Virus genome (UHGV): UHGV-0072281
DNA length: 64,000 nucleotides
Reading direction: 5' to 3' (one strand)
Source of the DNA: a virus
Part shown: in pieces, positions 26,434-54,641 of the stretch
Layout: the number at the start of each line of letters is the position of its first letter
Numbering within the stretch: position 1 is the stretch's first letter
The notes under the pieces: model-generated
The model's input: the letters and a program-made list of their open reading frames with translations, nothing else
Database searches by the model: none
Told to the model about the DNA's origin: nothing
Position numbers and translations under genes: made by a program

Positions 26434-27705
26434 ATGGCAAATTTCGCAAAAACTCGCGCCGCTCGTGAATCGATGGAAGCGGCCGATGAAGTAATCGACG
26501 GTATCAGCAACGTTGAACCGGCAGAAGAGAACCTGGACGTCCAGCTTGCAGACGTAGCCTCTATCGACGGTCAGCTCGAACAGCTGGAAACCGACGGTGA
26601 AACCCTGGCTGCCGATACTGAGCGTACTGAAGACGCTATCGATCAGGCGGAAGAAGCCGTTGCTAACGGTGAAGAAATGCCGGAAGAAGCGGTTGCCCTG
26701 CAAGAAGTGGCTCAGGAATCCATCTCACGTCGTTGGAACCTGGAACGCACCAAACTGGCTCGCGAATCCTATCGCCGTGGCCGTGGCATGACTGCTGCTG
26801 CGCAGGAAGGCTGGAAAGAAACCCTGAAAGGTCTTTACGAGCGTTTCATTCAGTTCTGTAAAGAAGTGATTGCGAAGATCAAAGACCTGAAACTGAAATA
26901 TTTCAACGTCGGTAAGACCGCACAGAAACGTGCGAAGAAATATCAGGAAATGCTGCGCAAGCTGGGCAAACAGAAAAATGATACCATCTCCGGTGGCTTC
27001 ATTACTAAGCTGTCCATTGAAGGTAAATTCGATGCAGCTGGTTCTATCGCTATCGCGAAAGAAGTAACCTCTGGTAAAGCTAAAGGTGCTATTAGCGCAC
27101 TGGAAAAACAAGCTGGTGAAGCTGTTACTGCTGTAACCAAAGGTGACGATGAAGCATTCAAAGCAATGCGTGGCGATCAGCCGGTAGAACTGTTCGGTAA
27201 AGCAGCGTCTAAACTGCATAACCTGCCGAACTTTGAAAACGGCGATGCGTCTAAACTGCTGGCTCTGCCGGGTAACGCATACGTTCAGTCCGGTACTAAA
27301 GAACTGGCTGGCGGTCACAAATTTACCGCTGTTGCATTCATGAGCACTGGCGATGCCTCTGACGATAAAGACGTGAAAACTCCGTCTGTTTCTGAAATGG
27401 CTGGCGCTGCTTCTTCTCTGGAATCTATCGGTAAAGGCTTCGAAGCTGTACTGAAAGACTTCCGTGCTTACGATGCAGAGATTGCAAAACTGCAACAGGC
27501 CGCTGAGAAAGCTGCTAACGCGCTGAACAGCGAAAAAGACGAAAGCAAGTGGGATGGCCTGCGTAATGCTCGCCAAGCTGCTGACCAGTCTGTTAAGAAC
27601 TACCAGACCCTGAACCGTGCCGTTAGTTATGTTGCTAACACCGTAATTAGCGGTTTGAACGGTTACCTGGGCGCTGGTATCGGTGCTTACGAAAAATCTA
27701 AGTAA
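26434..27705 (+). CDS. abundant-looking paralogue A: acidic N-terminal propeptide-like region, coiled-coil middle, conserved C-terminal GAGIGAYEKSK
   Basis: 423 aa; AAAGGAAA SD; visibly enriched for ctg/cgt/ggt/aac/gaa codons; N-term MANFAKTRAARESMEA..; motif ALQEVAQESISRRWN. Confidence 0.9.
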   Translation: MANFAKTRAARESMEAADEVIDGISNVEPAEENLDVQLADVASIDGQLEQLETDGETLAADTERTEDAIDQAEEAVANGEEMPEEAVALQEVAQESISRRWNLERTKLARESYRRGRGMTAAAQEGWKETLKGLYERFIQFCKEVIAKIKDLKLKYFNVGKTAQKRAKKYQEMLRKLGKQKNDTISGGFITKLSIEGKFDAAGSIAIAKEVTSGKAKGAISALEKQAGEAVTAVTKGDDEAFKAMRGDQPVELFGKAASKLHNLPNFENGDASKLLALPGNAYVQSGTKELAGGHKFTAVAFMSTGDASDDKDVKTPSVSEMAGAASSLESIGKGFEAVLKDFRAYDAEIAKLQQAAEKAANALNSEKDESKWDGLRNARQAADQSVKNYQTLNRAVSYVANTVISGLNGYLGAGIGAYEKSK

Positions 27706-27785
27706 TACTTAGGTTTACGGTTCCGAACAGTTCTTGAAATAAATCATCAGGGGAGCGAAACGCTCCCCTTAGAGGAAAGCTTAAA

Positions 27786-29048
27786 ATGGCGAATTTCTAC
27801 AAAAACAAAATTGCTCGTGAGTCAATGGAAGCGAACTCTACTGTCGTTCCAGATGGTATTGAGCTGCCAGCAGAGTCTATCGAAGGTACTCTGGCTGATA
27901 TCGAGCACGACACTAAACCGATCGAAGCGCTGGACGCTGACGCAGAGCTGCTGGCGGAAGACGGCGACGAAACCGATGCGCAGCTGGACGTTCTGGACGA
28001 AGCTCAGGCTTCCGCTGACGGCGAAGGTGGTGAAGATGGCGACGATCAGATGGACGCTGAAGAAGACATGCCGGACGACGCTGCTAAAGCGCTGGATGTT
28101 GCTCAGGAATCCATCCGTTCTCGCTGGAACTTCGAACACCGTTCTTCCGTTGCTCACGAATCTTACGGCGCTCGTAACCGTCGTCAGGTTGCTCGTGAAT
28201 CCCTGTGGGACGACATTAAAGCCTTCCTGAAACGTTTCTGGGAATGGCTGAAAGAGCAAGGCCGCAAACTGAAAGATCGTTGGCTGAAATTCCACAACCA
28301 GGGTAAATCTATCCAGGCTCGTGCGAAGAAATACGACGAAGCTATTCGTAAACTGGGCAAACAGAAGAAAGATGAAATCTCCGGTGGTTTCATCAAGTGC
28401 CTGTCTGTTGACGGTAAGTTCGTTGGTAACGATGTACCACGTCTGAAAGACGCGATGAGCCGTGTTTCTTCTTTCTACAGCAAACACGTTCCAACTCTGC
28501 TGGCTTCTGGTACCGCTCTGGTTGCAGACGTATCCAAAGCTAACGGTGCTCAGGCTGAGCAACTGCGTGCTGAATTTGCTGCGCTTTCTAAAGAAGATGG
28601 CGACAAAGAATTCCGCCTGGGCAACATGGTTATGCAGACCAACTTCGATGAAGATGGTGGCTTTAGCTTCACTCACGTTGAAGCAGAAAATGCTGTTGAA
28701 ACCAGCGTGAAAACTCCGTCTGTAAGCGAACTGGCTAAACTGAACGGTTTCTTCACCGATCTGGGTAAACAGATTGAGAAGAACGTTCTCGAATACCGTA
28801 AGACCGAGCAGGCTCGTGAGAAGTTCGCTCAGTCTATCGAGAAACTGCTGAAAGAAATCGATAACGTCAAGATCGATGAAAAACCAGAACTGACTGAAGG
28901 CGTACGTGTTGCACGTCGCTATGTTAACAGCATTCGCAGCGCAGTATCCCTGTGCGAGAAAGTTGTTGCTTCTGCTCAGAAAAACCTGGTTAGCGGCGTT
29001 AGCGGTTATATCAGCGCCGGTATCGCAGCGTACGAAAAGTCTAAGTAA
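27786..29048 (+). CDS. abundant-looking paralogue B of 26434-27705
   Basis: 420 aa; N-term MANFYKNKIARESMEA.., motif ALDVAQESIRSRWN, C-term SAGIAAYEKSK; same codon bias. Confidence 0.9.
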   Translation: MANFYKNKIARESMEANSTVVPDGIELPAESIEGTLADIEHDTKPIEALDADAELLAEDGDETDAQLDVLDEAQASADGEGGEDGDDQMDAEEDMPDDAAKALDVAQESIRSRWNFEHRSSVAHESYGARNRRQVARESLWDDIKAFLKRFWEWLKEQGRKLKDRWLKFHNQGKSIQARAKKYDEAIRKLGKQKKDEISGGFIKCLSVDGKFVGNDVPRLKDAMSRVSSFYSKHVPTLLASGTALVADVSKANGAQAEQLRAEFAALSKEDGDKEFRLGNMVMQTNFDEDGGFSFTHVEAENAVETSVKTPSVSELAKLNGFFTDLGKQIEKNVLEYRKTEQAREKFAQSIEKLLKEIDNVKIDEKPELTEGVRVARRYVNSIRSAVSLCEKVVASAQKNLVSGVSGYISAGIAAYEKSK

Positions 29049-41533: not shown

Positions 41534-43819
41534 ATGAAAGATACCCGAATCTCTAATTTAGAGAAACTCGTAGAAGCCGGTACTAGTCTGGCCCAAAACG
41601 TCATCGGCAACAACACCGCCAGCGAAATGTGGAAGACGATTGTTGCAGGCGAGTCCGTACGTAGCAACGCAAAAGTATTTGGCGCTCTGCGTGACGAAGC
41701 ATCACAGCACTATGCCAACGCTTTTGGCGGCAAGAAAATGTCTCATGCTGCGACCGTCGCTTCCGCAATGATTCTGGGCGTAGCTAACCACGGTAAAGAC
41801 CTGCAAGAACGTGTTGCCCAGGAATACGCTAAGCCGGAATTCCACACCAAGTATAACCTGGATATTGGTATCCCTGGTGCGCAAGGTGGTGATTGGGGTC
41901 GTGAGCGTATGGTTGTTGCTCAGGAATACTACAGCAACAAAGACTACGACAAAAACTTGGGCCTGACCTGGACCCTGAACGTACGTGCTCTGGAAACTCA
42001 GTCCAAGTTTGCTGAAACACTGTTCCCGACCATTACCGTTGACACCAACGATGTTGGTATTACCGTACGTACTAAAGTGACTACCGTTTCTCGCGGTATC
42101 ATGAACGCGCTGCTGAGCAAAGACGTCGTTGAAGATCATCGTCGTCCGCTGCACAACGCACTGACTGACCACACCGTTCTCCAGGACGAAGCGATCAACA
42201 TCGTTCCTTACGTAATGGAAACCGGTGAAAACCAGGAATACTTCGTAAGCGAAGATCTGGTTCCGAACGAAAAAGTTCGCCTGGGTCGTGTACCTCCGTA
42301 TCCGACTAACTACCTGAGCTTTGCAAACGACACGCTGAACCTGTTCCAGCTGTCTGCGCATCCGGGTATCGTTCAGGAAGGTTACGATGAAACTGATGAA
42401 ATCGCACCGGGTTGTGCTCTGGGCAGCCTGCTGATTTCTGTACGTAAACCGGCCGAAGAAGCGAAAGCGGGTAAATTCATCAAACTGCACGTTCGTGACA
42501 TGCAGTTCGCAACCTTCCAGCGTCCTGCTGAAGGTGACGGCCGTGAACTGGTTCTGCAATTCCGTCGTACCGCGTTCTCTCTGAATGCGAAAACCACTGA
42601 CTGGAAAGGCGACGCTATTCCGGCACTGCAAGCACTGGGCCAGAACTCCTACACCCTGCGCTACGTTATCACCATCACCATGTCCCTGTTCACCAGCGGC
42701 CAGTTCGGTGGTAAAGTAGACATTTCCGGCCACAAACTGGAAATCGAAGGTCTGTACGATGCAACTGGTAACAAAGTTGATACCAAGTCTGGTACCGGCA
42801 AAGTTATCCTGGATGGCCTGAAACTCGAACTGATGGGCTGGCGCTTCGATGGTACTCGTACCAACGAAAACCGTCGTACCCAGGGTCTGCTGCTTGACCC
42901 AATTTGGGAACAGGAAAACTACAAACTGCAATACGGTTCTCCGATTCTGACCAAGTCTCCGGTTGGTGTTGAATACGACGACACTGAACGTCTGGATGAC
43001 CTGATCTCTGCGGTGAACATCCGTAACGAACAGCTGGCTATTACTCAGACGCTGTCTTACACTGAAGCAGTACGTAACGCAGCCGCTGCGATGATCACTC
43101 CGTGGGACAAACCGGCTATCCGTGGTCTGGGCCGTCACTGGGTTGCTCCGTGGTTCAAAGAGTCTGACTACAAAGTCGATGAAGTTGTTCAGTCTCTGGA
43201 TACCAAAGAAGCGCTGATCAACGCTCGTCAGGGTCTGTTGCAGCGTATCGGTAGCCAGGTAACTCAGGCTATCCAGGATTCTCGTTTCATTCCTGCACTG
43301 CGCCTGCTGACCGCTGATCCGGACATTCTTCCGAAAGTTATTATCGCAACTGACGAACCGACTGCATCCATGCTGCTGCTGGTTCAGGGCGACCAACGTC
43401 TGCTGGGCGACCGTTATGAATACGAAGTCGTTACCACCAACGATGACCGCTGGCGTATCTACAACGCAGCTGACGATTCCTGGACTCGTCGTCTGCAATG
43501 GTTCCTGAAAGTTCCGACTGCGGACGATGGTTCCTACTGCGTACTGAACTGGGGTAACCACTTCTGGTCTCCGATCATGGTTACCAACATCAACATTCAG
43601 CGTAACGGTTCTACTTCTAAAGAACTGGCTGTACAGCCGCGTAACGCGCATATCTGCCACTGCCCGATCACTGGTCTGATTTGGGTTAAAGGCATCACCA
43701 AACTGGTTGAAGAAAAACTGGCTTACAACGTTTCTGTAGAACAGAACGGCCAGAAACAAACCGAAGGTGGTGTAGCAGGTAACCTTGCTGTCGAAGGCAA
43801 AGCTACCGCTGGTAAATAA
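41534..43819 (+). CDS. candidate major capsid protein
   Basis: 761 aa, size class of phiKZ-type major capsid proteins; strongest optimal-codon bias in window; AAGG SD; strong terminator downstream; S/A/G-x-E motifs in N-terminal ~100 aa; no homology check possible. Confidence 0.45.
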   Translation: MKDTRISNLEKLVEAGTSLAQNVIGNNTASEMWKTIVAGESVRSNAKVFGALRDEASQHYANAFGGKKMSHAATVASAMILGVANHGKDLQERVAQEYAKPEFHTKYNLDIGIPGAQGGDWGRERMVVAQEYYSNKDYDKNLGLTWTLNVRALETQSKFAETLFPTITVDTNDVGITVRTKVTTVSRGIMNALLSKDVVEDHRRPLHNALTDHTVLQDEAINIVPYVMETGENQEYFVSEDLVPNEKVRLGRVPPYPTNYLSFANDTLNLFQLSAHPGIVQEGYDETDEIAPGCALGSLLISVRKPAEEAKAGKFIKLHVRDMQFATFQRPAEGDGRELVLQFRRTAFSLNAKTTDWKGDAIPALQALGQNSYTLRYVITITMSLFTSGQFGGKVDISGHKLEIEGLYDATGNKVDTKSGTGKVILDGLKLELMGWRFDGTRTNENRRTQGLLLDPIWEQENYKLQYGSPILTKSPVGVEYDDTERLDDLISAVNIRNEQLAITQTLSYTEAVRNAAAAMITPWDKPAIRGLGRHWVAPWFKESDYKVDEVVQSLDTKEALINARQGLLQRIGSQVTQAIQDSRFIPALRLLTADPDILPKVIIATDEPTASMLLLVQGDQRLLGDRYEYEVVTTNDDRWRIYNAADDSWTRRLQWFLKVPTADDGSYCVLNWGNHFWSPIMVTNINIQRNGSTSKELAVQPRNAHICHCPITGLIWVKGITKLVEEKLAYNVSVEQNGQKQTEGGVAGNLAVEGKATAGK

Positions 43820-46836: not shown

Positions 46837-48447
46837 ATGGCAAGCTACAGCGAAACTCGTGAATTTATCTTGAAAGTTGTAATGGCTAAACAGGATCAGC
46901 TGTTGAACTATCTCGTCGATGCGATGAATGCGAAAGGGATAAAAGAAGATCCGTTTGTTAATGCAGCGTGCATTGTAGGTAACTGGTATCTGCAAAACCG
47001 TCGTCCTAACGACCAGACTAACGTTGCGGTTATCGAAACCTTTAAGGCAACGCTGTATAGCCGTCTGTTAGGTTTAGGCCTGACGCCGTTGCAGCCGGAC
47101 ATTCATAGCGCGTTAGAGAAAGCGTTTGTGCTGGCGAATCAACTTGCAGAAGAAGCTCGTCGTGCCGGGCAGGGTGGATTCGGTGTACGTACTGAACCAG
47201 TTAACTTCGGTATTCAGAATTCACAGAATGCGCAACCAACCGCACCGATTCAGGGTTCTTCTGTACCAATGGCCAGCTATACTCCGGCAGGTGTAACAGT
47301 GCAACCTGTACAACCCGCTCCGGTATTCGGCGGTACTCCGCAACCTCAACCTCAGCCGCAATCGCAGCCTGCTATTATTCAGCCGGCTGTTCCGCAGGAA
47401 GTGATGAACAAAAGCAAGCCTGTGGATATGAATAAGGAAACGATGGATGATATCATTCAACGTGCTAACCGTCCTCACCATGACATTTTGCGGGTAGAAA
47501 TTGTGGAAGACTATTTAGATCACGAGCTGAAAGAAAAGATTCAGCAAAACGTTGTTTCGCCGAAAGAAGCTAACACACGCGTCAAGAATTCTGTGTATGC
47601 AGAACATCGTGACTGGGGTGATAAGGTTAGTGAACTGGTTGAAGATAACGACAAACAATATTGCTCGTATGACGATGCGGGTATCATGGTGAAAGTCGAA
47701 AGCGAATATCGTCTGTATCCGATGGCACAGACTGAAACTTCTGCGGTGTATCTCCAGGAGTTTTATAGTTCGGTTCGCCAGATTATCGACGATCTCGATA
47801 CCGTACGTGATATTGACGATATTGAAAAGCTGATGGAGCGTGTTTCTAATGACGTCTTCAGACTGCGTGACCTTGCACAACGTTTGTTAATGTACTTCCT
47901 CACCAAATCTGATGAGAATGAAACGTATCGTAGCGAATGTTCAATGTTTACTCGTCGTTTCGTTGCAACATTAACCGTGCTGGTTCACAACGCTATCTCC
48001 GTGGCATCTGCTTACGGTAAAGACGTTCCGGGTACGAAATTCGTACAATTGGAATGCTGCCTGGATGACATGACCTACTTTAAAGAGACAGTGTATGGTC
48101 GTACCATCGGTGAAAACGGCGTGAGCAAGTCTGCGGATTATTTCCGTGAAATGTTCCTGCTAATCGCACGTTCTCTGCGTAAGCTGCACATTCGTCTGAC
48201 CTGCGATAATAAAGCCATTGAACTGTCTCAGGTAACGTACACGATTTCTCTGCAAGCAGATTATCAATCCGCTAACGATCGTCATATCGTGGAAATCTCT
48301 TCGTTTGGTAATAGCTTCGAACCGATTGTTTCAATCTACGAAGTCATTAACCAGAAAGCACCAGAAGCGTTCATTAAACTTAAGACCCCGTCTCACGTTT
48401 ATTCGCTACTGAGCACAGGTGACGTTACTGCACCGGTTCGTTATTAA
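46837..48447 (+). CDS. hypothetical protein with PQ-repeat linker
   Basis: 536 aa; AGGAGAA SD; low-complexity GTPQPQPQPQSQPAIIQPAVPQ. Confidence 0.8.
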   Translation: MASYSETREFILKVVMAKQDQLLNYLVDAMNAKGIKEDPFVNAACIVGNWYLQNRRPNDQTNVAVIETFKATLYSRLLGLGLTPLQPDIHSALEKAFVLANQLAEEARRAGQGGFGVRTEPVNFGIQNSQNAQPTAPIQGSSVPMASYTPAGVTVQPVQPAPVFGGTPQPQPQPQSQPAIIQPAVPQEVMNKSKPVDMNKETMDDIIQRANRPHHDILRVEIVEDYLDHELKEKIQQNVVSPKEANTRVKNSVYAEHRDWGDKVSELVEDNDKQYCSYDDAGIMVKVESEYRLYPMAQTETSAVYLQEFYSSVRQIIDDLDTVRDIDDIEKLMERVSNDVFRLRDLAQRLLMYFLTKSDENETYRSECSMFTRRFVATLTVLVHNAISVASAYGKDVPGTKFVQLECCLDDMTYFKETVYGRTIGENGVSKSADYFREMFLLIARSLRKLHIRLTCDNKAIELSQVTYTISLQADYQSANDRHIVEISSFGNSFEPIVSIYEVINQKAPEAFIKLKTPSHVYSLLSTGDVTAPVRY

Positions 48448-48828: not shown

Positions 48829-49134
48829 ATGATTAAATATGTTGTTATTAATGTAAACTACGAACGTAGTCCACGTTTTCGCTTCGAATTACCTGAAACC
48901 AATGCAACCATGGAGTTTAATCGCTACTTTTTAGAGCATTCAAACACCAAAGTCAATCGCGGTAGATACTAGCTTATCTACTATAATGCACGTAATGAGT
49001 TACTGAAAGCCGTCAAGAAATCAGGTCAGCAAGAATTGTTAGCGAAACTGATGGCGTTTGATAACGATCCTTTAGCAATAGGAATTATGTTAGACCTTGT
49101 TATCAATAAAGACGAAATAGCGTGGTCCGAATAA
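48829..49134 (+). pseudogene. 101-codon reading frame interrupted by one in-frame TAG (48970-48972): pseudogene or readthrough/suppression candidate
   Basis: ATG 48829 with GAGGGA/AGGAAA SD; 47 codons, TAG, then 53 further sense codons in the same frame ending TAA 49132-49134 just before a terminator. Confidence 0.4.
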
Positions 49135-49190
49135 AAAAGCTACTCCGACCCCAGAAGGGTCGGAGTAGGCTCGAATTATTTTTTTTTTGC
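49134..49190. terminator. bidirectional intrinsic terminator
   Basis: 12-bp stem ctactccgaccc-cagaa-gggtcggagtag flanked by A-run upstream and T10 downstream. Confidence 0.85.
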
Positions 49191-49193
49191 TAT

Positions 49194-51911
49194 TTAGAGA
49201 GTTTCATCGCTGTTGTCATCTGCACCGGTATCCGTCTCGTCCGTGCCTTCAGTTGAAACGTCTTCTTCCGTTGCCGTATCGGTTTCCGTCGTTTCATCGT
49301 CAGTCATGTCCAAGTCTTCATCACCGCCCAGATCGTCACCACCTAAGTCCTCATCGCCTCCTAAGCCGCCGTCATCTTCAGTGCCGCCGCCAAAGTCGCT
49401 GCTACCGCCGAAGTTATTGGCGTCTTCAGGATTCAGATCAGCCGCTTTTGCTAACGTTTCAACTTTCCCTGTTACACGTTTTGCCAACTGAATCAGTGTC
49501 TTAGATGCAGACGCAATTTCGTCAGAGATCATCTTAACGTTTTCACCGCGTTTCTCTTCATCGTAAATCAGGTCGAACATATCGTTCTCAATACCCTGAC
49601 TACGTAACCAGTGGCGCGCGTAGAAGGTCTTAACCATCGTCTTGAGGTCATCAGGTGACATTTCAATACCTTCGTTCTGAAGCATATTAGCAATGTCATC
49701 CGTGACCACCAGATCTGCAAGTTTCTCGATAAATTCATAGCGTTTATCGAAGAGATCAGCTTGAGATGCTGTTGCAGAAGTATCAGGTGGTGGCAAGGTG
49801 ACCTTCATACCGTTGATAAACTTCGCCATATACTCTGACGTTTGTTTTGTCATCTCTTCGCTAGATACATTCGGATTCTGCTCACGGATATACTCAACGA
49901 TAATACGGATGAGTTCTGCTTGCAGTTTCGGTGAAGCTTGCAGACTGTTTGTAACGTAGCGCGTAAGCGGGGTTGAGAGGATTTCCTGTTTCTTCACAAT
50001 CTGTTGAGTAACCAACAGCGATTTAGAATAAATCTGAGAAGCAAACTCCAGGTTCTCCGGGGTAAGTACAAGGTCAGGATCAACACACGCGATGTGACAT
50101 GTACGGCGTAACAGGTTCTCGTCAATTTGTTGATCAGGAACTTTATACTCCGGCGTGGTATCAGACACAGACACTTTGTGGCTGGCGTAGTAATCGTTAC
50201 CCGTTACGTTAAAGGCAATCCCCGCGTTAGCTCCCATTGCCCAAGCATCGTTAATATCCCCCCACATCGGTAAACGACGGTTGTAGGAGTTAAGGATATC
50301 TGATTTGGCTTGGTCGACAGTTTTTTGACCGTTTGCATCGTCCGGTGACAGCTCAATGTCGTACTGCATGTGACGTGCCGAGTTTAGTACAGATGAGTTC
50401 ATTGTCGCAAACAGCAGTGCCATCCTGACGGTGGAGATGATAAAAGAGCGTTCAGTGATAGAAACCCCGATACCATCTTCGTTAAAATCCGTTGCAAAAT
50501 AGCATAGGTTATTAACCGGAATGTAAACCACTTGAGTATGACGTTTTGCGAGATGACGCGCTAACAGAATACGGCCGAATGTTTCGGTAATATTCATGCT
50601 GATTTCTGCGCCACCTAGTGCCTGACTTAATGCGCGAGCAAATTCGTTTTCAGCGATTTCACCGCAACGTGTACTTAAACGGTTGGCGATTTCCGGGGTA
50701 ATGCGAGAAGTGTTCCCTAAGCCCAGATTAGAACGGTTAATGATGCTGTCCGTCATCCCGTCGTTATTCAGGTAGTTCATAAAGTTCGCATCGCCGTACA
50801 GCGAGGAGCGAGCATTGATGAAGTTACCCATGTCATCTACGATGGTCAGATAACCAATAGGGTTACGAACGTCATCGCCAATTACCAGTGGCAGCGTTGA
50901 CTCTGCGGGCAGTAAACGTTCGATGTATTCGATTTTGTTATTCTCATCCATTGAGATAATAGGAATATCACCGTACGTTTGTGTTTTCGGTGTTGACTTA
51001 TACGCCTCGTTTAAATCACCCAAGTTAATGAACCCTTTTTCAGCAGCGTCACGCTGACGGTCATCGAAAGATTGGTTAGGGTCGAACGGACTGCCACCGT
51101 TTGGTGTAGACGGCTTTTCATATGCGGCTTGCTCTAATTGCCCGTACAAACCCGTACGTGCGTTCTCATGCGCGATACGACGATACAAATCCGGCAGCAT
51201 GGTAATGCGCGGGTTATCGGTAATCGTGATTTCCATCTGGAATTTATCCGAGAACATCGAATCGTGCTTACCGAAATCGATTTTCAACGTCTGAGGACCA
51301 GTAACGGCTCCGTGTAAACGGTTGAGAATTGATTCCACACCAACTCGCTGCCCTTCTTTCGGCGCATTAATAGGCCCGAGAATACCAAGCTGTTGTTCGA
51401 AGAACGCCGTTTGGGAACGACGAATAGATTCAGTAGCGACCTTTGTATTCAGACCGAATAATTGGTCGAAGCCGGTATCCGAGATTATCATCACTGGACT
51501 TGCGCCTTTGGTTTTTAACGCATCGTAAATCCACTGATATAATTTCTTAGGTAGCTGACGAATGTTATCGTGATAATCACGGGTCGGTGTCAGTAGCGCG
51601 TTACGCAGATCAATGGGGATGTCCGCGAAGTTGTCGTAAATCAACGTCGTGTTGATTAAGTCTTTTGTTGATAACAGGCTCGAAGTTGCAATAGTAACGA
51701 TTGTTTCGAGTTCAGGTAACGCATCAAAGATACGTTCCGCATTTTTGATAGTACGAATACGTGAACTCGCAATTGCCGTGAGTTCTTGACGTGTTGGCGT
51801 AGAACCACCCTCGCTACGCGTACCGCGTTGTTGCTGAGGTGCTGGGCCCGTAGTTTTACGAAGAATTGCAGCTACGGCGGGGTCGCCCGTTAATTTACTA
51901 ATATCGTCCAT
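49194..51911 (-). CDS. hypothetical large protein with extremely acidic Gly/Asp/Glu/Thr-rich C-terminal tail
   Basis: 905-aa ORF; C-terminal ~75 aa NNFGGSSDFGGGTEDDGGLGGDEDLGGDDLGGDEDLDMTDDETTETDTATEEDVSTEGTDETDTGADDNSDETL. Confidence 0.8.
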   Translation of the reverse strand: MDDISKLTGDPAVAAILRKTTGPAPQQQRGTRSEGGSTPTRQELTAIASSRIRTIKNAERIFDALPELETIVTIATSSLLSTKDLINTTLIYDNFADIPIDLRNALLTPTRDYHDNIRQLPKKLYQWIYDALKTKGASPVMIISDTGFDQLFGLNTKVATESIRRSQTAFFEQQLGILGPINAPKEGQRVGVESILNRLHGAVTGPQTLKIDFGKHDSMFSDKFQMEITITDNPRITMLPDLYRRIAHENARTGLYGQLEQAAYEKPSTPNGGSPFDPNQSFDDRQRDAAEKGFINLGDLNEAYKSTPKTQTYGDIPIISMDENNKIEYIERLLPAESTLPLVIGDDVRNPIGYLTIVDDMGNFINARSSLYGDANFMNYLNNDGMTDSIINRSNLGLGNTSRITPEIANRLSTRCGEIAENEFARALSQALGGAEISMNITETFGRILLARHLAKRHTQVVYIPVNNLCYFATDFNEDGIGVSITERSFIISTVRMALLFATMNSSVLNSARHMQYDIELSPDDANGQKTVDQAKSDILNSYNRRLPMWGDINDAWAMGANAGIAFNVTGNDYYASHKVSVSDTTPEYKVPDQQIDENLLRRTCHIACVDPDLVLTPENLEFASQIYSKSLLVTQQIVKKQEILSTPLTRYVTNSLQASPKLQAELIRIIVEYIREQNPNVSSEEMTKQTSEYMAKFINGMKVTLPPPDTSATASQADLFDKRYEFIEKLADLVVTDDIANMLQNEGIEMSPDDLKTMVKTFYARHWLRSQGIENDMFDLIYDEEKRGENVKMISDEIASASKTLIQLAKRVTGKVETLAKAADLNPEDANNFGGSSDFGGGTEDDGGLGGDEDLGGDDLGGDEDLDMTDDETTETDTATEEDVSTEGTDETDTGADDNSDETL

Positions 51912-51922
51912 TGGGGTCTCCG

Positions 51923-54106
51923 ATGCAGAGATTTAACATATTTCGTGAACAGAACATCGCGTTGGCGAAATCACTGATTATTAAATCAGAATCAATCGCA
52001 CAACAGATGAATCTGGCAATAACCGAGAACGGCGGTTTCGTTTCCGATAACCGAAGTACGTGGCGATACTACCTGCATTTAGCAGGACAACGTCACGAAT
52101 GGGATAAGCCCATTTACATAACGTCGCTCGACACGCAAGAGCAGATAGAATTAACGACAGCCAACCTGTCCCGTCATAAAAAGACCTCAAACGTATTTCG
52201 TTCGAACGGTGAGTACATTGAGGAGCTGATCAGAACGTATCCTGACTACGCGATTTATATCCGAGGTGTGTTTAATCCGGTGGATATAAACTACGCCATC
52301 CGTGTGGCTGATTGTTCTATTCTCTATTACGACAGTTCATTAGTGGAGTCGCAAGAGACGTCACTGATGTCGAGATTGGAAGACAGAATAAGGGCAGCTC
52401 ACGTTCGCTATATGTCAGAAGGGTGGAAAGTTCACAACGATGCGTTCGTGTTAGCATTCTACTGTATTCTGTATCCGCAGCTACCCGGCATTATCGGCTA
52501 TATCCGTTCTTCTTTACAGCATACCACGGAAACACACTCGTTTTACGTGACAGAGTTCTTAGCATCACACCAAGAACTTCACGAGTTTATGCCGTATCTG
52601 ACCCAGAAACAGAAATTCATTCTTTATCGGAACATTCGTTACTGGGAACGTAACTCGGGGAAAGAGGAGATTTTCGACTGGCAGATTGATGCATTGCTGA
52701 CAGGTTGGGGGATGCCTGCGGTTGGGTATAATGTTGCACAACAGATACACGAACCGAAGGATGATGATGACTCCACGTTAACACCGTTACCGATCGGTTA
52801 TCAGCAATCGCTTAACTATACGGAAAAGGATTCTGGTCGAGACCTTGACATTGTAACGACGACAGACATTATCCAGAAGGAAGTCGCGTTAGCGTACAAT
52901 AACCCGGCGTACGAACCGGAGTATCAGGAAGACTTAGATACCCGTTTAAGTTTAACGCAATACCCTAACCTGAAAACCAAACTCATTGAAGTTACAGCAG
53001 TCGACCCAGAAGCGATTGAGCGCTTCGAGTATCTGCATAACCTCTTTAACGAATGGGTACATCTCGTCGCGAAAGGGAAATACAACATTTACCACGAGAT
53101 TCTTAACCCAACAAACGGGGATACCTTAAAGCTTAGCTCAAAAGAGTTATTGGCGCTGTTCTTATACGCGGCGTATAAAGGGTATTCTGACGTTGCGTTA
53201 GAAGAGATTCCTGCGTTCAACGTATTCGGGGTGTTAATCAAACGTTGGGTTTCGTTCGACGAAATGGAACAACATTTAATCCCGAGCTGGGAAAACCGTT
53301 TCGAAGCGTTGATTAACTATTATACCGATACACACACAGAAGTCGTCGGAACGATTCTTAGTGCTGATGAACTCTACGACACGGTTAATGAAATCATTAC
53401 CCAGAAACGTCGTCGTTGGCGTTATAGTCAAAACCGTCGGAAGATTCCTGACCGTGCTGCGGGCTTGATGCTGTTTAACTACCATTACCGTGATTATCGC
53501 TGCGATTTAAAACTGAACTACCGTAACTACGATGAGTTCTTTAAAACGTTCGGGTTAGATTATACATTGGTTTCGGCGGAGACGTGGCAAGACATTGCTA
53601 TTGATGCGTTTAACACCGCGACTAACCTGGAAACCCGTGCAACGATTTCACAGTCTGAGATTCAGCGTGCAATGGTACGATTGATGACGAAGTTGTCATC
53701 CTACACCGTACATTTTGCTGCGCGAATGGGGTCAGATTCTTACGACGTTATGGACCCGCTCTGTCCCATCTTAGGGGATATCCCTATGAGTGGGGAGGGG
53801 ACAATTACAATTATTGAACCCCTCTTAGGCGTACAGCAAGTTACGCGTCACCAGTATATATCCACCGACACTGTGTTACCGGCAGCGCCTGTTATTAAAG
53901 AACTGTCGATGCCGCAGCACATCAAACTCAGGATGAACATTTACATGGGCATCCGAGTGAAAGTAACACAGCAGGTTGTGGTGGATATTAACGAGCCGAC
54001 TACCGGGGTTGTTAAAGTGAAATCTTCGCTTGACGATTGGACGTTAAACGAACAGGTGAAAATTAACGATCTTGACGGCTTCACGCTTGACCAGCTACCT
54101 AAGTGA
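51923..54106 (+). CDS. hypothetical protein
   Basis: 727 aa from ATG 51923; start lies 12 nt from divergent gene start. Confidence 0.75.
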   Translation: MQRFNIFREQNIALAKSLIIKSESIAQQMNLAITENGGFVSDNRSTWRYYLHLAGQRHEWDKPIYITSLDTQEQIELTTANLSRHKKTSNVFRSNGEYIEELIRTYPDYAIYIRGVFNPVDINYAIRVADCSILYYDSSLVESQETSLMSRLEDRIRAAHVRYMSEGWKVHNDAFVLAFYCILYPQLPGIIGYIRSSLQHTTETHSFYVTEFLASHQELHEFMPYLTQKQKFILYRNIRYWERNSGKEEIFDWQIDALLTGWGMPAVGYNVAQQIHEPKDDDDSTLTPLPIGYQQSLNYTEKDSGRDLDIVTTTDIIQKEVALAYNNPAYEPEYQEDLDTRLSLTQYPNLKTKLIEVTAVDPEAIERFEYLHNLFNEWVHLVAKGKYNIYHEILNPTNGDTLKLSSKELLALFLYAAYKGYSDVALEEIPAFNVFGVLIKRWVSFDEMEQHLIPSWENRFEALINYYTDTHTEVVGTILSADELYDTVNEIITQKRRRWRYSQNRRKIPDRAAGLMLFNYHYRDYRCDLKLNYRNYDEFFKTFGLDYTLVSAETWQDIAIDAFNTATNLETRATISQSEIQRAMVRLMTKLSSYTVHFAARMGSDSYDVMDPLCPILGDIPMSGEGTITIIEPLLGVQQVTRHQYISTDTVLPAAPVIKELSMPQHIKLRMNIYMGIRVKVTQQVVVDINEPTTGVVKVKSSLDDWTLNEQVKINDLDGFTLDQLPK

Positions 54107-54113
54107 GAAAACC

Positions 54114-54641
54114 ATGGCATATCGCGTCGACTTAACGAAAACTCCGAAACAAATTCTGGTAGATCGTATTAACTACGTTTTCGGGGTATCCTATACCACT
54201 GACAACATCGATTTTAACGATAAAGGTGTGCAACCACTGACGAAAGACGAAGCCCGTCGTTATGGACTGGAATCGAAAGTGGCCGCTGACTTTAAAAACG
54301 GTGTTGCGGGGAACCAGGAATTCATCTTAACCCGTGTTGACCTGGCAGCGTTCTTAGCTGACGAACCGGTTACGGTACCGAAAGGCGAAGTAACCAGCAG
54401 CCAAGAACTGGCAGACTATATCGTTGCTCAGACCGGTATTGATTTGACCAAAGACGACATTATGATCGAGCCTATCAGTGAGGAACTCGATTCTTATGAT
54501 GTTCGCTTAGTCCCGAATCACTTATCTTTTAAAGGAACGATTCCGGTCGTATTTACTGACCCCACACCACGTACGTTGGCGTCTCTCGTGACGAAACTTG
54601 CGCTGGACGGGTTCCGCCCTGGAGAATTAATCAATGTCTAA
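54114..54641 (+). CDS. hypothetical protein
   Basis: 175 aa from ATG 54114. Confidence 0.7.
   Translation: MAYRVDLTKTPKQILVDRINYVFGVSYTTDNIDFNDKGVQPLTKDEARRYGLESKVAADFKNGVAGNQEFILTRVDLAAFLADEPVTVPKGEVTSSQELADYIVAQTGIDLTKDDIMIEPISEELDSYDVRLVPNHLSFKGTIPVVFTDPTPRTLASLVTKLALDGFRPGELINV

What the first reader, a model, noticed from the sequence alone, without database searches (positions are those of the whole stretch)
49194..49420. Extremely acidic low-complexity C-terminal tail on a 905-aa protein
The last ~75 residues (..NNFGGSSDFGGGTEDDGGLGGDEDLGGDDLGGDEDLDMTDDETTETDTATEEDVSTEGTDETDTGADDNSDETL) are almost entirely Asp/Glu/Gly/Thr. This looks like a DNA-mimic or electrostatic interaction tail, as seen on SSBs, some portal or packaging proteins and cytoskeletal filament proteins. 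The gene is the only one on the minus strand in this region and is divergently paired with 51923-54106.
Basis: seen in the sequence. Interest (0 to 1): 0.4.

Follow-up and report, generated by a model that had tools for sequence, protein, structure and literature searches.

The report
Acidic disordered tail on jumbo-phage portal
The 905-residue protein is the portal (DNA entry/exit ring) of a phiKZ/SPN3US-type jumbo phage. Its 83-residue, strongly acidic, disordered C-terminal tail is real, is kept by selection across the whole portal family, and has never been functionally explained.

Summary
ORF 49194-51911 (-) encodes 905 aa. Residues 823-905 contain no Lys/Arg and 32 Asp/Glu (net charge -32), plus 18% Gly and 14.5% Thr.

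The protein is the portal. It is 72% identical to SPN3US gp81, the experimentally established portal, and matches the solved phiKZ gp129 and Goslar gp36 portal structures. Its predicted fold also hits phiKZ portal 9xpe first.

- All 69 orthologues examined have an acidic tail.
- 137 of 140 diverse family representatives have a net charge of -10 or lower in the last 80 residues.
- The primary sequence drifts, but dN/dS in the tail is 0.12-0.18.

The tail is predicted disordered (pLDDT about 28) and starts exactly where the last crown helix ends. The Goslar virion model stops before it. Prohead-protease AXE sites occur in tails only at chance frequency.

Hydrophobic elements are embedded in the tail: Phi-G-G-acid repeats, an acid-Phi-x-Phi-acid motif (28/69 versus 4 expected) and a hydrophobic last residue (45/69 versus 7 expected). 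These point to a tethered protein-binding arm, loosely like the SSB C-tail, projecting into the capsid lumen. The binding partner and the function remain inferred.

This is an ordinary gene carrying an overlooked, family-wide feature.

The parts
49194..51911 (-). Portal protein gene (905 aa plus stop), orthologue of SPN3US gp81, phiKZ gp129 and Goslar gp36
   Evidence: ORF. PHROG 3004 at E=0. tblastn finds 254 phage records, with 72-75% identity to SPN3US and phiEaH2. PDB sequence hits are 9xpe_M PHIKZ129 at E=1.5e-41 and 11ed_J portal gp36. The Foldseek top hit is 9xpe_M at E=7.6e-23, followed by other portals.
49197..49445 (-). Acidic, Lys/Arg-free, disordered C-terminal tail, residues 823-905 (net charge -32)
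   Evidence: Composition. pLDDT about 28 with no secondary structure. Conserved in composition in 69/69 orthologues and 137/140 representatives. dN/dS 0.12-0.18.
49308..49409 (-). Proximal sub-module, residues 835-868: Gly/Asp/Glu units each ending in a hydrophobic residue (FGGSSD FGGGTEDDGG LGGDED LGGDD LGGDED L)
   Evidence: Hydrophobic-spacing map across 48 homologues. Lowest dN/dS within the tail, about 0.07 in the diverged pairs. No DNA-level repeat.
49302..49319 (-). Acid-Phi-x-Phi-acid motif EDLDMT, residues 865-870
   Evidence: Pattern [DE][DE]-Phi-x-Phi-[DENST] occurs once in 28/69 tails versus 4.1 expected by shuffling, and in 28/140 representatives versus 8.2 expected.
49209..49307 (-). 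Distal Thr/Ser/Asp/Glu-rich spacer, residues 869-901. It contains the only AXE motif in the tail (ATE, 880-882).
   Evidence: dN/dS 0.24-0.31 in the diverged pairs.
49197..49208 (-). C-terminal tip DETL, residues 902-905: acidic residues followed by a terminal hydrophobic residue
   Evidence: The last residue is hydrophobic in 45/69 orthologues versus 7.2 expected. Pro is enriched in the last 6 residues, 54 versus 14.7. In representatives the figure is 48/140 versus 17.4. DETL is identical in three 90-98% relatives.
49443..49550 (-). Last predicted helix of the crown domain, residues 788-823, from which the tail emerges
   Evidence: AF2 secondary structure shows helix H788-823. In Goslar the crown domain is the C-terminal ordered domain on the capsid-interior side, residues 778-923 of 969.
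51165..51911 (-). Probable N-terminal propeptide, residues 1-249, with prohead-protease motifs ATE 159-161 (51429-51437) and AHE 247-249 (51165-51173)
   Evidence: SPN3US cleavage sites ATE-161 and AQE-254 (PMC5694885 and PMC10052503) align to these positions. A247 and E249 are invariant in 48 homologues.
49140..49168 (-). Intrinsic-terminator-like hairpin (13-bp stem, 8 GC pairs) followed by a T-run, starting 25 nt past the stop codon. It is flanked by an A-run, so it is possibly bidirectional.
51912..51922 (.). 11-bp gap between the divergent start codons of the portal gene and the baseplate-wedge gene
   Evidence: The spacing is identical in SPN3US.
51923..54106 (+). Divergent neighbour, a homologue of phiKZ gp128 (baseplate wedge protein). 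It is context only and not part of the tail's function.
   Evidence: 31% identity at E=1e-74 to the gp128 homologue of phiKZ-like phage PA_ZH1. gp128 is a baseplate-wedge subunit in the phiKZ structure (PMC13250141).

Best explanation
Shown: the gene encodes the portal protein of an SPN3US-like, phiKZ-related jumbo phage. Residues 823-905 are an intrinsically disordered polyanionic extension of the C-terminal crown domain. The extension is conserved across the family and is under purifying selection.

Inferred from solved homologues: the crown lies on the capsid-interior face, so twelve such tails (about -384 charges, about 100 kDa of chain) ring the inner mouth of the portal channel.

Inferred mechanism: each tail works as a flexible tethered binding arm. 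A strongly acidic, DNA-like linker carries short hydrophobic contact elements. These are the Phi-Gly-Gly-acid units, one acid-Phi-x-Phi-acid motif and a hydrophobic C-terminal tip with a free carboxylate. The organisation resembles the disordered linker plus acidic tip of bacterial SSB.

During prohead assembly these arms would capture and hold basic or DNA-binding internal head (ejection/core) proteins at the portal. They could alternatively fold back onto the portal's own channel. Once DNA is packaged they would be displaced and remain as an invisible, DNA-repelling brush around the channel entrance. The tail is most likely kept in the mature virion rather than removed by the prohead protease.
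For: Identity as the portal:
- 72% identity to SPN3US gp81, which proteomics established as the 12-copy portal (PMC5694885).
- HMMER hits to the dodecameric PDB chains 9xpe (phiKZ gp129) and 11ed (Goslar gp36).
- Foldseek top hit is 9xpe_M at E=7.6e-23, followed by HFTV1, crAss001, T4 and G20c portals.

Position and disorder:
- The AF2 model ends its last helix at residue 823; residues 824-905 are coil with pLDDT about 28.
- The Goslar virion model ends at residue 923 of 969, just before the equivalent tail, and its crown sits at the top (capsid-interior side) of the ring.
- Only 633 of 896 phiKZ gp129 residues are modelled.

Selection:
- The tail is acidic in 69/69 orthologues down to about 20% identity, including a Bacillus jumbo phage.
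- 137/140 representatives of a family of 1,256 clusters are acidic.
- dN/dS in the tail is 0.12-0.18 versus 0.04 in the body. Synonymous versus nonsynonymous changes give Fisher p=5e-7. There are no indels among four lineages whose bodies have dS above 1.
- The repeats are not DNA slippage products.

Binding arm rather than a pure charge brush:
- Acid-Phi-x-Phi-acid motif in 28/69 tails versus 4.1 expected.
- Hydrophobic last residue in 45/69 versus 7.2 expected, and Pro near the end 54 versus 14.7.
- The G/D/Phi sub-module is the most constrained part of the tail, with dN/dS about 0.07.

Candidate basic partners exist in the same window. The two abundant internal-head paralogues (PHROG 2497) have a +11 per 40 aa segment immediately after their conserved AQE cleavage site.

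Not a conserved protease substrate:
- AXE motifs in tails number 39 versus 41.2 expected, and only 27/69 tails have one.
- By inspection, the SPN3US tail sequence has none.
- The SPN3US studies report only N-terminal processing of gp81.
Against: - No binding partner is identified and no interaction was tested. AF2 was run on a monomer only.
- The hydrophobic motifs are enriched but not universal: about 40% for the Phi-x-Phi motif in the close set and 20% in diverse representatives, and the hydrophobic tip occurs in 34-65%. The sequences are phylogenetically related, so the shuffle-based expectations overstate independence.
- Absence of density in the virion structures fits removal of the tail equally well. 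With no Lys/Arg the tail is invisible to tryptic MS, so published proteomics cannot say whether it is present.
- phiKZ-type proteases accept S/A/G-X-E, and such sites are frequent in the tails (six in this one).
- The internal-head proteins' own propeptides are also very acidic, so electrostatic complementarity is not specific to the portal tail.
- The SPN3US 'scaffold candidate' gp22 shows no basic patch.
Confidence: 0.45

Rival explanations
1. Purely electrostatic or entropic brush acting as a headful sensor. The polyanionic tails do not bind anything specific. As DNA density rises they are repelled and compressed onto the crown. This amplifies the pressure-driven conformational switch of the portal that ends packaging and exposes neck-binding sites, and afterwards keeps DNA off the channel mouth.
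For: Charge and disorder are the only universally conserved properties (137/140), while the sequence drifts. [quoted passage not shown] T4 gp20 itself ends in a short acidic stretch. From general knowledge, phiKZ-like phages package by a headful mechanism.
Against: A pure brush gives no reason for the enriched hydrophobic tip, the Phi-x-Phi motif, or the stronger constraint on the G/D/Phi sub-module. Twelve tails carry about 384 charges, which is negligible against the roughly 480,000 phosphates of a 240-kb genome (my arithmetic), so any effect must be strictly local.
Confidence: 0.22
2. Channel plug or permeability barrier. In the empty prohead the twelve tails fill or cover the unusually wide portal channel as a disordered mesh. 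The mesh retains the large load of internal proteins while letting cleaved peptides out, and is pushed aside by motor-driven DNA.
For: The Goslar portal channel is 60-74 A wide, wider than the 30-44 A reported for T4. An 83-residue disordered chain has a contour length of about 300 A and an estimated coil size of about 80 A (my polymer-scaling estimate). Twelve chains would therefore overlap across the mouth at roughly 150 mg/ml. The Gly-rich units with spaced Phe/Leu are loosely FG-repeat-like.
Against: The strong like-charge repulsion argues against a cohesive mesh. There is no density or biochemical evidence, and the geometry rests on my own estimate.
Confidence: 0.12
3. C-terminal propeptide. 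The tail serves only during assembly, for example to keep the portal soluble or to nucleate the core. It is then trimmed by the prohead protease and lost or kept as free acidic peptides, like the acidic internal peptides of T4.
For: The tail is absent from both virion structures. This tail has one AXE site (ATE 880-882) and six S/A/G-X-E sites. T4 prohead-core protein gp67 carries a comparable poly-acidic segment. Removal of long acidic propeptides is a theme in these phages.
Against: AXE sites occur at chance frequency and are missing from 42/69 tails. By inspection of its sequence, the SPN3US tail has none. No site is conserved at the crown/tail boundary. SPN3US studies that used chymotrypsin as well as trypsin reported 13 N-terminal propeptide cleavages and only one C-terminal one, in the protease itself. 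They also found the 72.3-kDa mass of residues 255-913 consistent with gel migration.
Confidence: 0.1
4. Outward-threading DNA mimic. Before packaging the tails pass through the channel and emerge at the clip. There they engage the terminase or the phage-nucleus docking machinery as a DNA surrogate.
For: The contour length of about 300 A exceeds the likely height of the ring, and the channel is wide. [quoted passage not shown]
Against: There is no evidence for which part of the portal binds ChmB. ChmB is absent from Goslar-like and other non-Pseudomonas phages, yet the tail is universal. Threading twelve like-charged chains through one channel is unfavourable.
Confidence: 0.05

Closest known systems
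Portal proteins of phiKZ-related jumbo phages: SPN3US gp81, phiKZ gp129 (PDB 9XPE), Goslar gp36 (PDB 11ed)
   Same: Homologous over the full length. The crown domain ends in the same way, followed by an acidic, unmodelled tail. The N-terminal protease motifs match and the inverted gene position is the same.
   Different: Only 72-75% identical to the nearest deposited phage, so this is a new species-level member. The tail sequence itself is not alignable beyond close relatives.
C-terminal tail of bacterial SSB (disordered linker plus acidic tip ...DDDIPF)
   Same: A disordered Gly-rich, acidic linker ends in acidic residues followed by Pro and a hydrophobic C-terminal residue. Relatives end in ...DDDIPL...EEDIPQ and ...NDEIPMV.
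   Different: It is attached to a portal crown, not an OB fold. The window protein ends in ...SDETL. It is much more acidic along its whole length. No partner is known.
Capsid-interior C-terminal elements of other portals: the T4 gp20 crown and, from general knowledge, the P22 C-terminal barrel
   Same: Located at the C-terminus on the lumenal side of the ring. T4 gp20 also ends in an acidic stretch capped by Phe (...QDPDQEQEDF). The crown is implicated in sensing packed DNA.
   Different: Those elements are short or helical and ordered. Here the element is 83 residues of predicted coil with a net charge of -32.
Poly-acidic segments of T4-type prohead core proteins (gp67) and the acidic propeptides of SPN3US gp53/gp54-type internal head proteins
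   Same: Long Asp/Glu-rich low-complexity segments inside the prohead.
   Different: Those segments are bounded by protease sites and are removed or processed. The portal tail has no conserved site.
FG-repeat domains of nucleoporins
   Same: Disordered chains anchored in a ring around a channel, with Gly-rich spacers and spaced Phe/Leu residues.
   Different: There are only about 6 hydrophobic positions per chain and an extreme negative charge. There is no homology and no evidence of cohesion.

Membership tests
Tailed-phage portal protein, phiKZ gp129 / SPN3US gp81 family (PHROG 3004) | Significant full-length sequence homology to experimentally established portals | tested here: met
   PHROG 3004 at E=0 over residues 2-902. 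72% identity to SPN3US gp81. E=1.5e-41 to phiKZ gp129 in PDB 9xpe, deposited as 12 chains.
Tailed-phage portal protein, phiKZ gp129 / SPN3US gp81 family (PHROG 3004) | Portal fold (wing, stem, clip, crown) | tested here: met
   The AF2 model (mean pLDDT 61.9, so moderate) gives a Foldseek top hit of 9xpe_M at E=7.6e-23 and probability 1.00. Next come the HFTV1, crAss001, T4 gp20 and G20c portals, at E of 0.01 or weaker.
Tailed-phage portal protein, phiKZ gp129 / SPN3US gp81 family (PHROG 3004) | Dodecameric ring at one capsid vertex | not testable with these tools
   Only inferred from the homologues' structures.
Tailed-phage portal protein, phiKZ gp129 / SPN3US gp81 family (PHROG 3004) | Prohead-protease maturation sites of the SPN3US type (A-X-E) in the N-terminal region | tested here: met
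   ATE 159-161 and AHE 247-249 align to SPN3US ATE-161 and AQE-254. A247 and E249 are invariant in 48 sequences. Cleavage itself was not tested.
Tailed-phage portal protein, phiKZ gp129 / SPN3US gp81 family (PHROG 3004) | Acidic low-complexity C-terminal tail after the crown (a family hallmark proposed here) | tested here: met
   69/69 orthologues and 137/140 representatives.
SSB-type C-terminal tail | Intrinsically disordered linker ending in an acidic tip with a C-terminal hydrophobic residue | tested here: inconclusive
   Disorder is predicted. The tip is enriched family-wide (45/69 versus 7.2 expected). However, the window protein ends in DETL, not D-D-D-I-P-F.
SSB-type C-terminal tail | Attached to an OB-fold ssDNA-binding core | tested here: not met
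   The globular part has a portal fold.
Prohead-protease-removed propeptide | Conserved protease recognition site at the boundary of the removed segment | tested here: not met
   AXE motifs in tails number 39 versus 41.2 expected and are absent from 42/69 tails. By inspection, the SPN3US tail has none. No conserved site sits at residues about 820-835.
Structured DNA-mimic proteins (Ocr/ArdA type) | Folded surface displaying carboxylates with the spacing of DNA phosphates | tested here: not met
   The tail is predicted to be coil with pLDDT about 28. There are no Pfam hits.
RTX-type Ca-binding Gly/Asp repeats | Tandem nonapeptides GGxGxDxUx | tested here: not met
   The units here are 5-10 residues long (GGDEDL, GGDDL). 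By inspection of the sequence, only one GGxGxD match (GGLGGD) is present.

The most novel reading that the evidence does not exclude
The twelve tails together form a nuclear-pore-like, polyanionic disordered gate across the exceptionally wide portal channel of nucleus-forming jumbo phages. The gate would retain the >40 MDa of ejection proteins in the prohead and virion while still admitting motor-driven DNA. The hydrophobic Phi-GG and Phi-x-Phi elements would supply weak cohesion, and the C-terminal tip would latch onto the channel wall.
Probability: 0.1. Interest if true: 0.75.

Novelty: new member of a known kind. Interest (0 to 1): 0.4.

Why it matters
The gene itself is an ordinary portal gene. 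The comparative result is what matters. Every portal of this large family (1,256 clusters at 50% identity) carries a selected, disordered polyanionic tail on its lumenal face. That tail is invisible both to cryo-EM and to tryptic proteomics. I found no discussion of it in the phiKZ, Goslar or SPN3US papers read here: the Goslar preprint contains no instance of "acidic", and a full-text search found no paper that links a portal with an acidic tail.

These phages must load, retain and later eject tens of megadaltons of protein through an unusually wide portal. How internal proteins are organised at the portal, and how the channel is closed, are open questions. A defined 83-residue element with separable charge and hydrophobic features gives a direct handle for truncation and point-mutant experiments in the SPN3US genetic system.

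Tried and rejected
1. Pfam gave no hit for the portal.
2. I looked for tail peptides in the SPN3US proteomics supplements. Only one file is held and it has no matches. phiKZ paper supplements are not held. The key phiKZ proteolysis paper (PMC3323674) is not in the library, and the phiKZ review does not mention the portal.
3. I tested whether the SPN3US 'scaffold candidate' gp22 is a basic partner. It has net charge -9 and no basic patch, so this idea was dropped.
4. I tested whether the divergent neighbour is a head partner. It is a baseplate-wedge homologue, so this was dropped.
5. I tested whether the Gly/Asp repeats are recent DNA slippage. TRF found nothing and the codons differ between units.
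6. I tested whether the tail is a conserved protease substrate. The motifs occur at chance level.
7. The Avs5 paper, which surfaced in a search for 'portal' plus 'acidic', turned out to be unrelated to the tail.
8. The plus-strand ORFs 49187-49504 and 49213-49491, antisense to the tail, are Ser/Pro-rich mirror images of the low-complexity coding sequence. I did not treat them as genes.
9. The second structure-prediction job was not used, because only monomer predictions of window sequences are allowed and they cannot test binding.
Full report
**1. The observation**

ORF 49194..51911 on the minus strand encodes 905 residues. The anomalous segment begins slightly earlier. After K822 there are 83 residues (823-905; window 49197-49445) with no Lys or Arg, 21 Asp, 11 Glu, 15 Gly and 12 Thr, giving a net charge of -32.

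Given the composition of the other 822 residues (13% D+E, 10.5% K+R), at least 32 acidic residues in 83 has probability 6e-9. The tail's most negative 40-residue stretch (-20) is the most extreme of 54 ORFs in the window. There is no tandem repeat at the DNA level, and the GGDEDL/GGDDL/GGDEDL units use different synonymous codons.

**2. What the protein is**

- PHROG 3004 ('virion structural protein', head and packaging) matches end to end at E=0. Pfam has nothing.
- tblastn finds the protein in 254 phage genomes. The best matches, at 72-75% identity, are Erwinia phages phiEaH2, Stratton and Asesino and Salmonella phage SPN3US. Several records annotate it as 'portal protein'.
- SPN3US gp81 is the experimentally assigned 12-copy portal (PMC5694885).
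- Against the PDB, the protein hits phiKZ gp129 (9xpe, 12 chains, E=1.5e-41), Goslar 'portal protein gp36' (11ed) and a third 12-chain entry (36za; 917 residues, the same length as 201phi2-1 gp214, identity not verified).
- An AlphaFold2 model built from 48 homologues (mean pLDDT 61.9) retrieves 9xpe_M first (E=7.6e-23), followed by the portals of HFTV1, crAss001, T4 and G20c.
- Surrounding genes fit an SPN3US-like jumbo phage: major head protein at 41534-43819, internal head proteins at 26434-29048, a DnaB-like helicase and polymerases.

The protein is the portal of a new SPN3US-like, phiKZ-related jumbo phage.

**3. Where the tail sits**

In the model the last helix spans residues 788-823. 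Residues 824-905 are coil with pLDDT about 28. The tail therefore starts exactly where the ordered crown domain ends.

[quoted passage not shown] The model stops before the last 46 residues, which are the equivalent acidic tail. The phiKZ portal chain has only 633 of 896 residues modelled.

By homology, twelve tails emanate from the lumenal rim of the channel. This placement is an inference from the homologues.

**4.

- Among 55 full-length homologues at 44-98% identity, the last 80 residues contain 22-44 D/E and 0-3 K/R.
- Fifteen distant orthologues at about 20-25% identity have acidic tails too. They include phiKZ-like PA_ZH1, PhiPA3, 201phi2-1, Goslar, an EL-like phage, Ralstonia RP12, Xanthomonas LucasX, Aeromonas ZPAH34, Erwinia AH06 and PhiEaH1, Klebsiella YC1, Salmonella SPLA10, a Vibrio phage and Bacillus phage AgentSmith.
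- An exhaustive profile search found 1,256 family clusters at 50% identity. Of 140 full-length representatives among the best 150, 137 have a last-80 net charge of -10 or lower and 128 have -15 or lower.
- The primary sequence is not conserved. Mean identity to the window residue is 0.18-0.39 in the tail versus 0.5-0.85 in the core.

Coding DNA of three relatives gives dN/dS of 0.12-0.18 for the tail, about 0.07 for the Gly/Asp/hydrophobic part in the diverged pairs, and 0.04 for the body. There are no indels, even though synonymous divergence in the body exceeds 1. Synonymous versus nonsynonymous counts in the tail differ with Fisher p=5e-7. The tail is therefore selected for composition, length and some positions. 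The refutation criterion is not met.

**5. Internal anatomy**

The tail has three parts.
- Residues 835-868 are Gly/Asp/Glu units, each ending in Phe, Leu or Met. Relatives show the same design (GGFGGGF, DDGLGGDD repeats).
- Residues 865-870 (EDLDMT) form an acid-Phi-x-Phi-acid motif. Relatives have DDLDLD, DDFSFD, DDFNFD, DEFDFD and DDFSME. The pattern occurs exactly once in 28/69 tails versus 4.1 expected from shuffles, and in 28/140 representatives versus 8.2 expected.
- A Thr/Ser/Asp/Glu spacer ends in a hydrophobic tip. The last residue is L, V, I, F or W in 45/69 orthologues versus 7.2 expected, and Pro is enriched in the last six residues, 54 versus 14.7. In representatives the tip figure is 48/140 versus 17.4.

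Several relatives end in ...DDDIPL or ...EEDIPQ, which is close to the SSB tip ...DDDIPF (resemblance recalled from general knowledge). The window protein ends in ...SDETL, conserved in its three close relatives. These enrichments rest on shuffles, and the sequences are related, so they are suggestive and not proof.

**6. Is the tail a propeptide?**

SPN3US gp81 loses a 254-residue N-terminal propeptide at AQE-254, with an additional cut at ATE-161, through the prohead protease gp245. That protease's motif is A-X-E (PMC5694885 and PMC10052503). These sites align to ATE 159-161 and AHE 247-249 here, and A247 and E249 are invariant in 48 homologues. N-terminal maturation is therefore probably conserved.

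In the tails, AXE occurs at chance frequency (39 versus 41.2 expected) and in only 27/69 sequences. By inspection, the SPN3US tail has none. The window tail has one (ATE 880-882) and six looser S/A/G-X-E sites. The SPN3US studies, which also used chymotrypsin, report no C-terminal processing of the portal.

However, a Lys/Arg-free tail cannot yield tryptic peptides, and I found no peptide lists to check. Retention in the virion is therefore likely but unproven.

**7. Mechanism**

Shown:
- The protein is the portal.
- The tail is predicted to be disordered.
- The tail's acidity is conserved family-wide.
- The tail is under purifying selection.
- Hydrophobic elements are enriched in it.
- It contains no conserved protease site.

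Inferred: lumenal location, and twelve copies per particle.

My preferred reading (confidence about 0.45) is a tethered binding arm. A DNA-like polyanionic linker carries short hydrophobic contacts and a C-terminal plug. The arm would capture basic internal-head (ejection/core) proteins, or a site on the portal itself, during prohead assembly. After packaging it would persist as a DNA-repelling fringe.

Candidate basic partners exist. The two abundant internal-head paralogues in this window have a +11 per 40 aa segment right after their conserved AQE site. This is circumstantial.

The rivals are:
- a pure electrostatic headful sensor, consistent with the T4 model in which packed DNA pushes on the crown;
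- a plug or gate for the unusually wide channel, 60-74 A in Goslar versus 30-44 A in T4;
- a C-terminal propeptide;
- outward threading to the terminase or nuclear-shell docking factors.

**8. Comparison with what is known, and novelty**

The gene is a new member, at 75% identity or less to deposited phages, of a known portal family. The tail is present in published sequences and is unmodelled in the Goslar virion structure; the phiKZ chain 9xpe_M models only 633 of 896 residues, which residues are missing not established here. I found no discussion of it: the word 'acidic' does not occur in the Goslar paper, and no paper in the library links a portal with an acidic tail.

T4 gp20 has a much shorter acidic end capped by Phe, and the T4 core protein gp67 has a poly-acidic tail. 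Acidic segments inside proheads are therefore a known theme.

The tail resembles the SSB tail in organisation but fails SSB membership, having no OB fold. It is not a structured DNA mimic, not an RTX repeat, and not a demonstrable propeptide.

**9. Verdict**

The finding is real and the identification is secure. The feature is family-wide and selected, and its function is unknown but testable. Interest is moderate (0.4).

Noticed in passing
window 48829-49137 (+), stop at 48970-48972: A conserved 99-aa gene just downstream of the portal gene, on the opposite strand, is interrupted by an in-frame TAG where three relatives have TGG (Trp48). The rest of the reading frame is intact. This could be a nonsense mutation, a sequencing error or an amber allele.
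   Followed up: partly
window 26434-27705 and 27786-29048 (+): Two paralogous internal head proteins (PHROG 2497, 36% identical) have extremely acidic N-terminal regions (-14 and -19 net per 40 aa). These are followed by the SPN3US gp53-type cleavage motif (AAAQEGWKETLK) and then a strongly basic segment (+11 per 40 aa). This looks like a self-neutralising propeptide arrangement.
   Followed up: partly
window 51912-51922, and loci L001-L015: In all 15 related phage loci examined, the portal gene is head-to-head with the phiKZ gp128-type baseplate-wedge gene and is the only gene on its strand locally in nearly all of them (RP12 has one small same-strand gene downstream). The start codons are only 11 bp apart here and in SPN3US and overlap in PhiEaH1. 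Each promoter and ribosome-binding site must therefore lie inside the other gene.
   Followed up: partly
window 49140-49168: A 13-bp GC-rich hairpin sits between the convergent genes, with an A-run on one side and a T-run on the other. It looks like a bidirectional intrinsic terminator.
   Followed up: no
window 49197-49445 versus 49446-51911, compared with L018/L019: At conserved D/E/G/T codons, synonymous differences are about half as frequent in the tail as in the body for the 90%-identity relatives (0.23 versus 0.43, p=0.008). This does not hold for the 98% relative. Possible causes are recombination at the 3' end or a nucleotide-level constraint; it remains unexplained.
   Followed up: partly
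window 51165-51911 (residues 1-249), compared with Goslar gp36: SPN3US removes 254 N-terminal residues from its portal, and the motif is invariant in this clade. In contrast, the Goslar virion model includes residues 5-519 in the wing domain. N-terminal processing of the portal therefore seems to differ within the family.
   Followed up: no
window 46837-48447 (+), around residues 150-185: The 536-aa protein (PHROG 8185, unknown function) contains a Pro/Gln-rich low-complexity stretch...GGTPQPQPQPQSQPAIIQPAVPQ....
   Followed up: no
window 54072-54641 (+): This 189-aa protein matches DUF7941 (PF25613). The Goslar study identifies that module in its most abundant packaged virion proteins.
   Followed up: no
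L017 (phage T4) gene 20 and gene 67: T4 portal gp20 ends in an acidic stretch capped by Phe (...FQDPDQEQEDF). T4 gp67 ends in a run of about 35 mostly Asp/Glu residues. An acidic C-terminus with a hydrophobic last residue may therefore be older than the jumbo-phage family.
   Followed up: no
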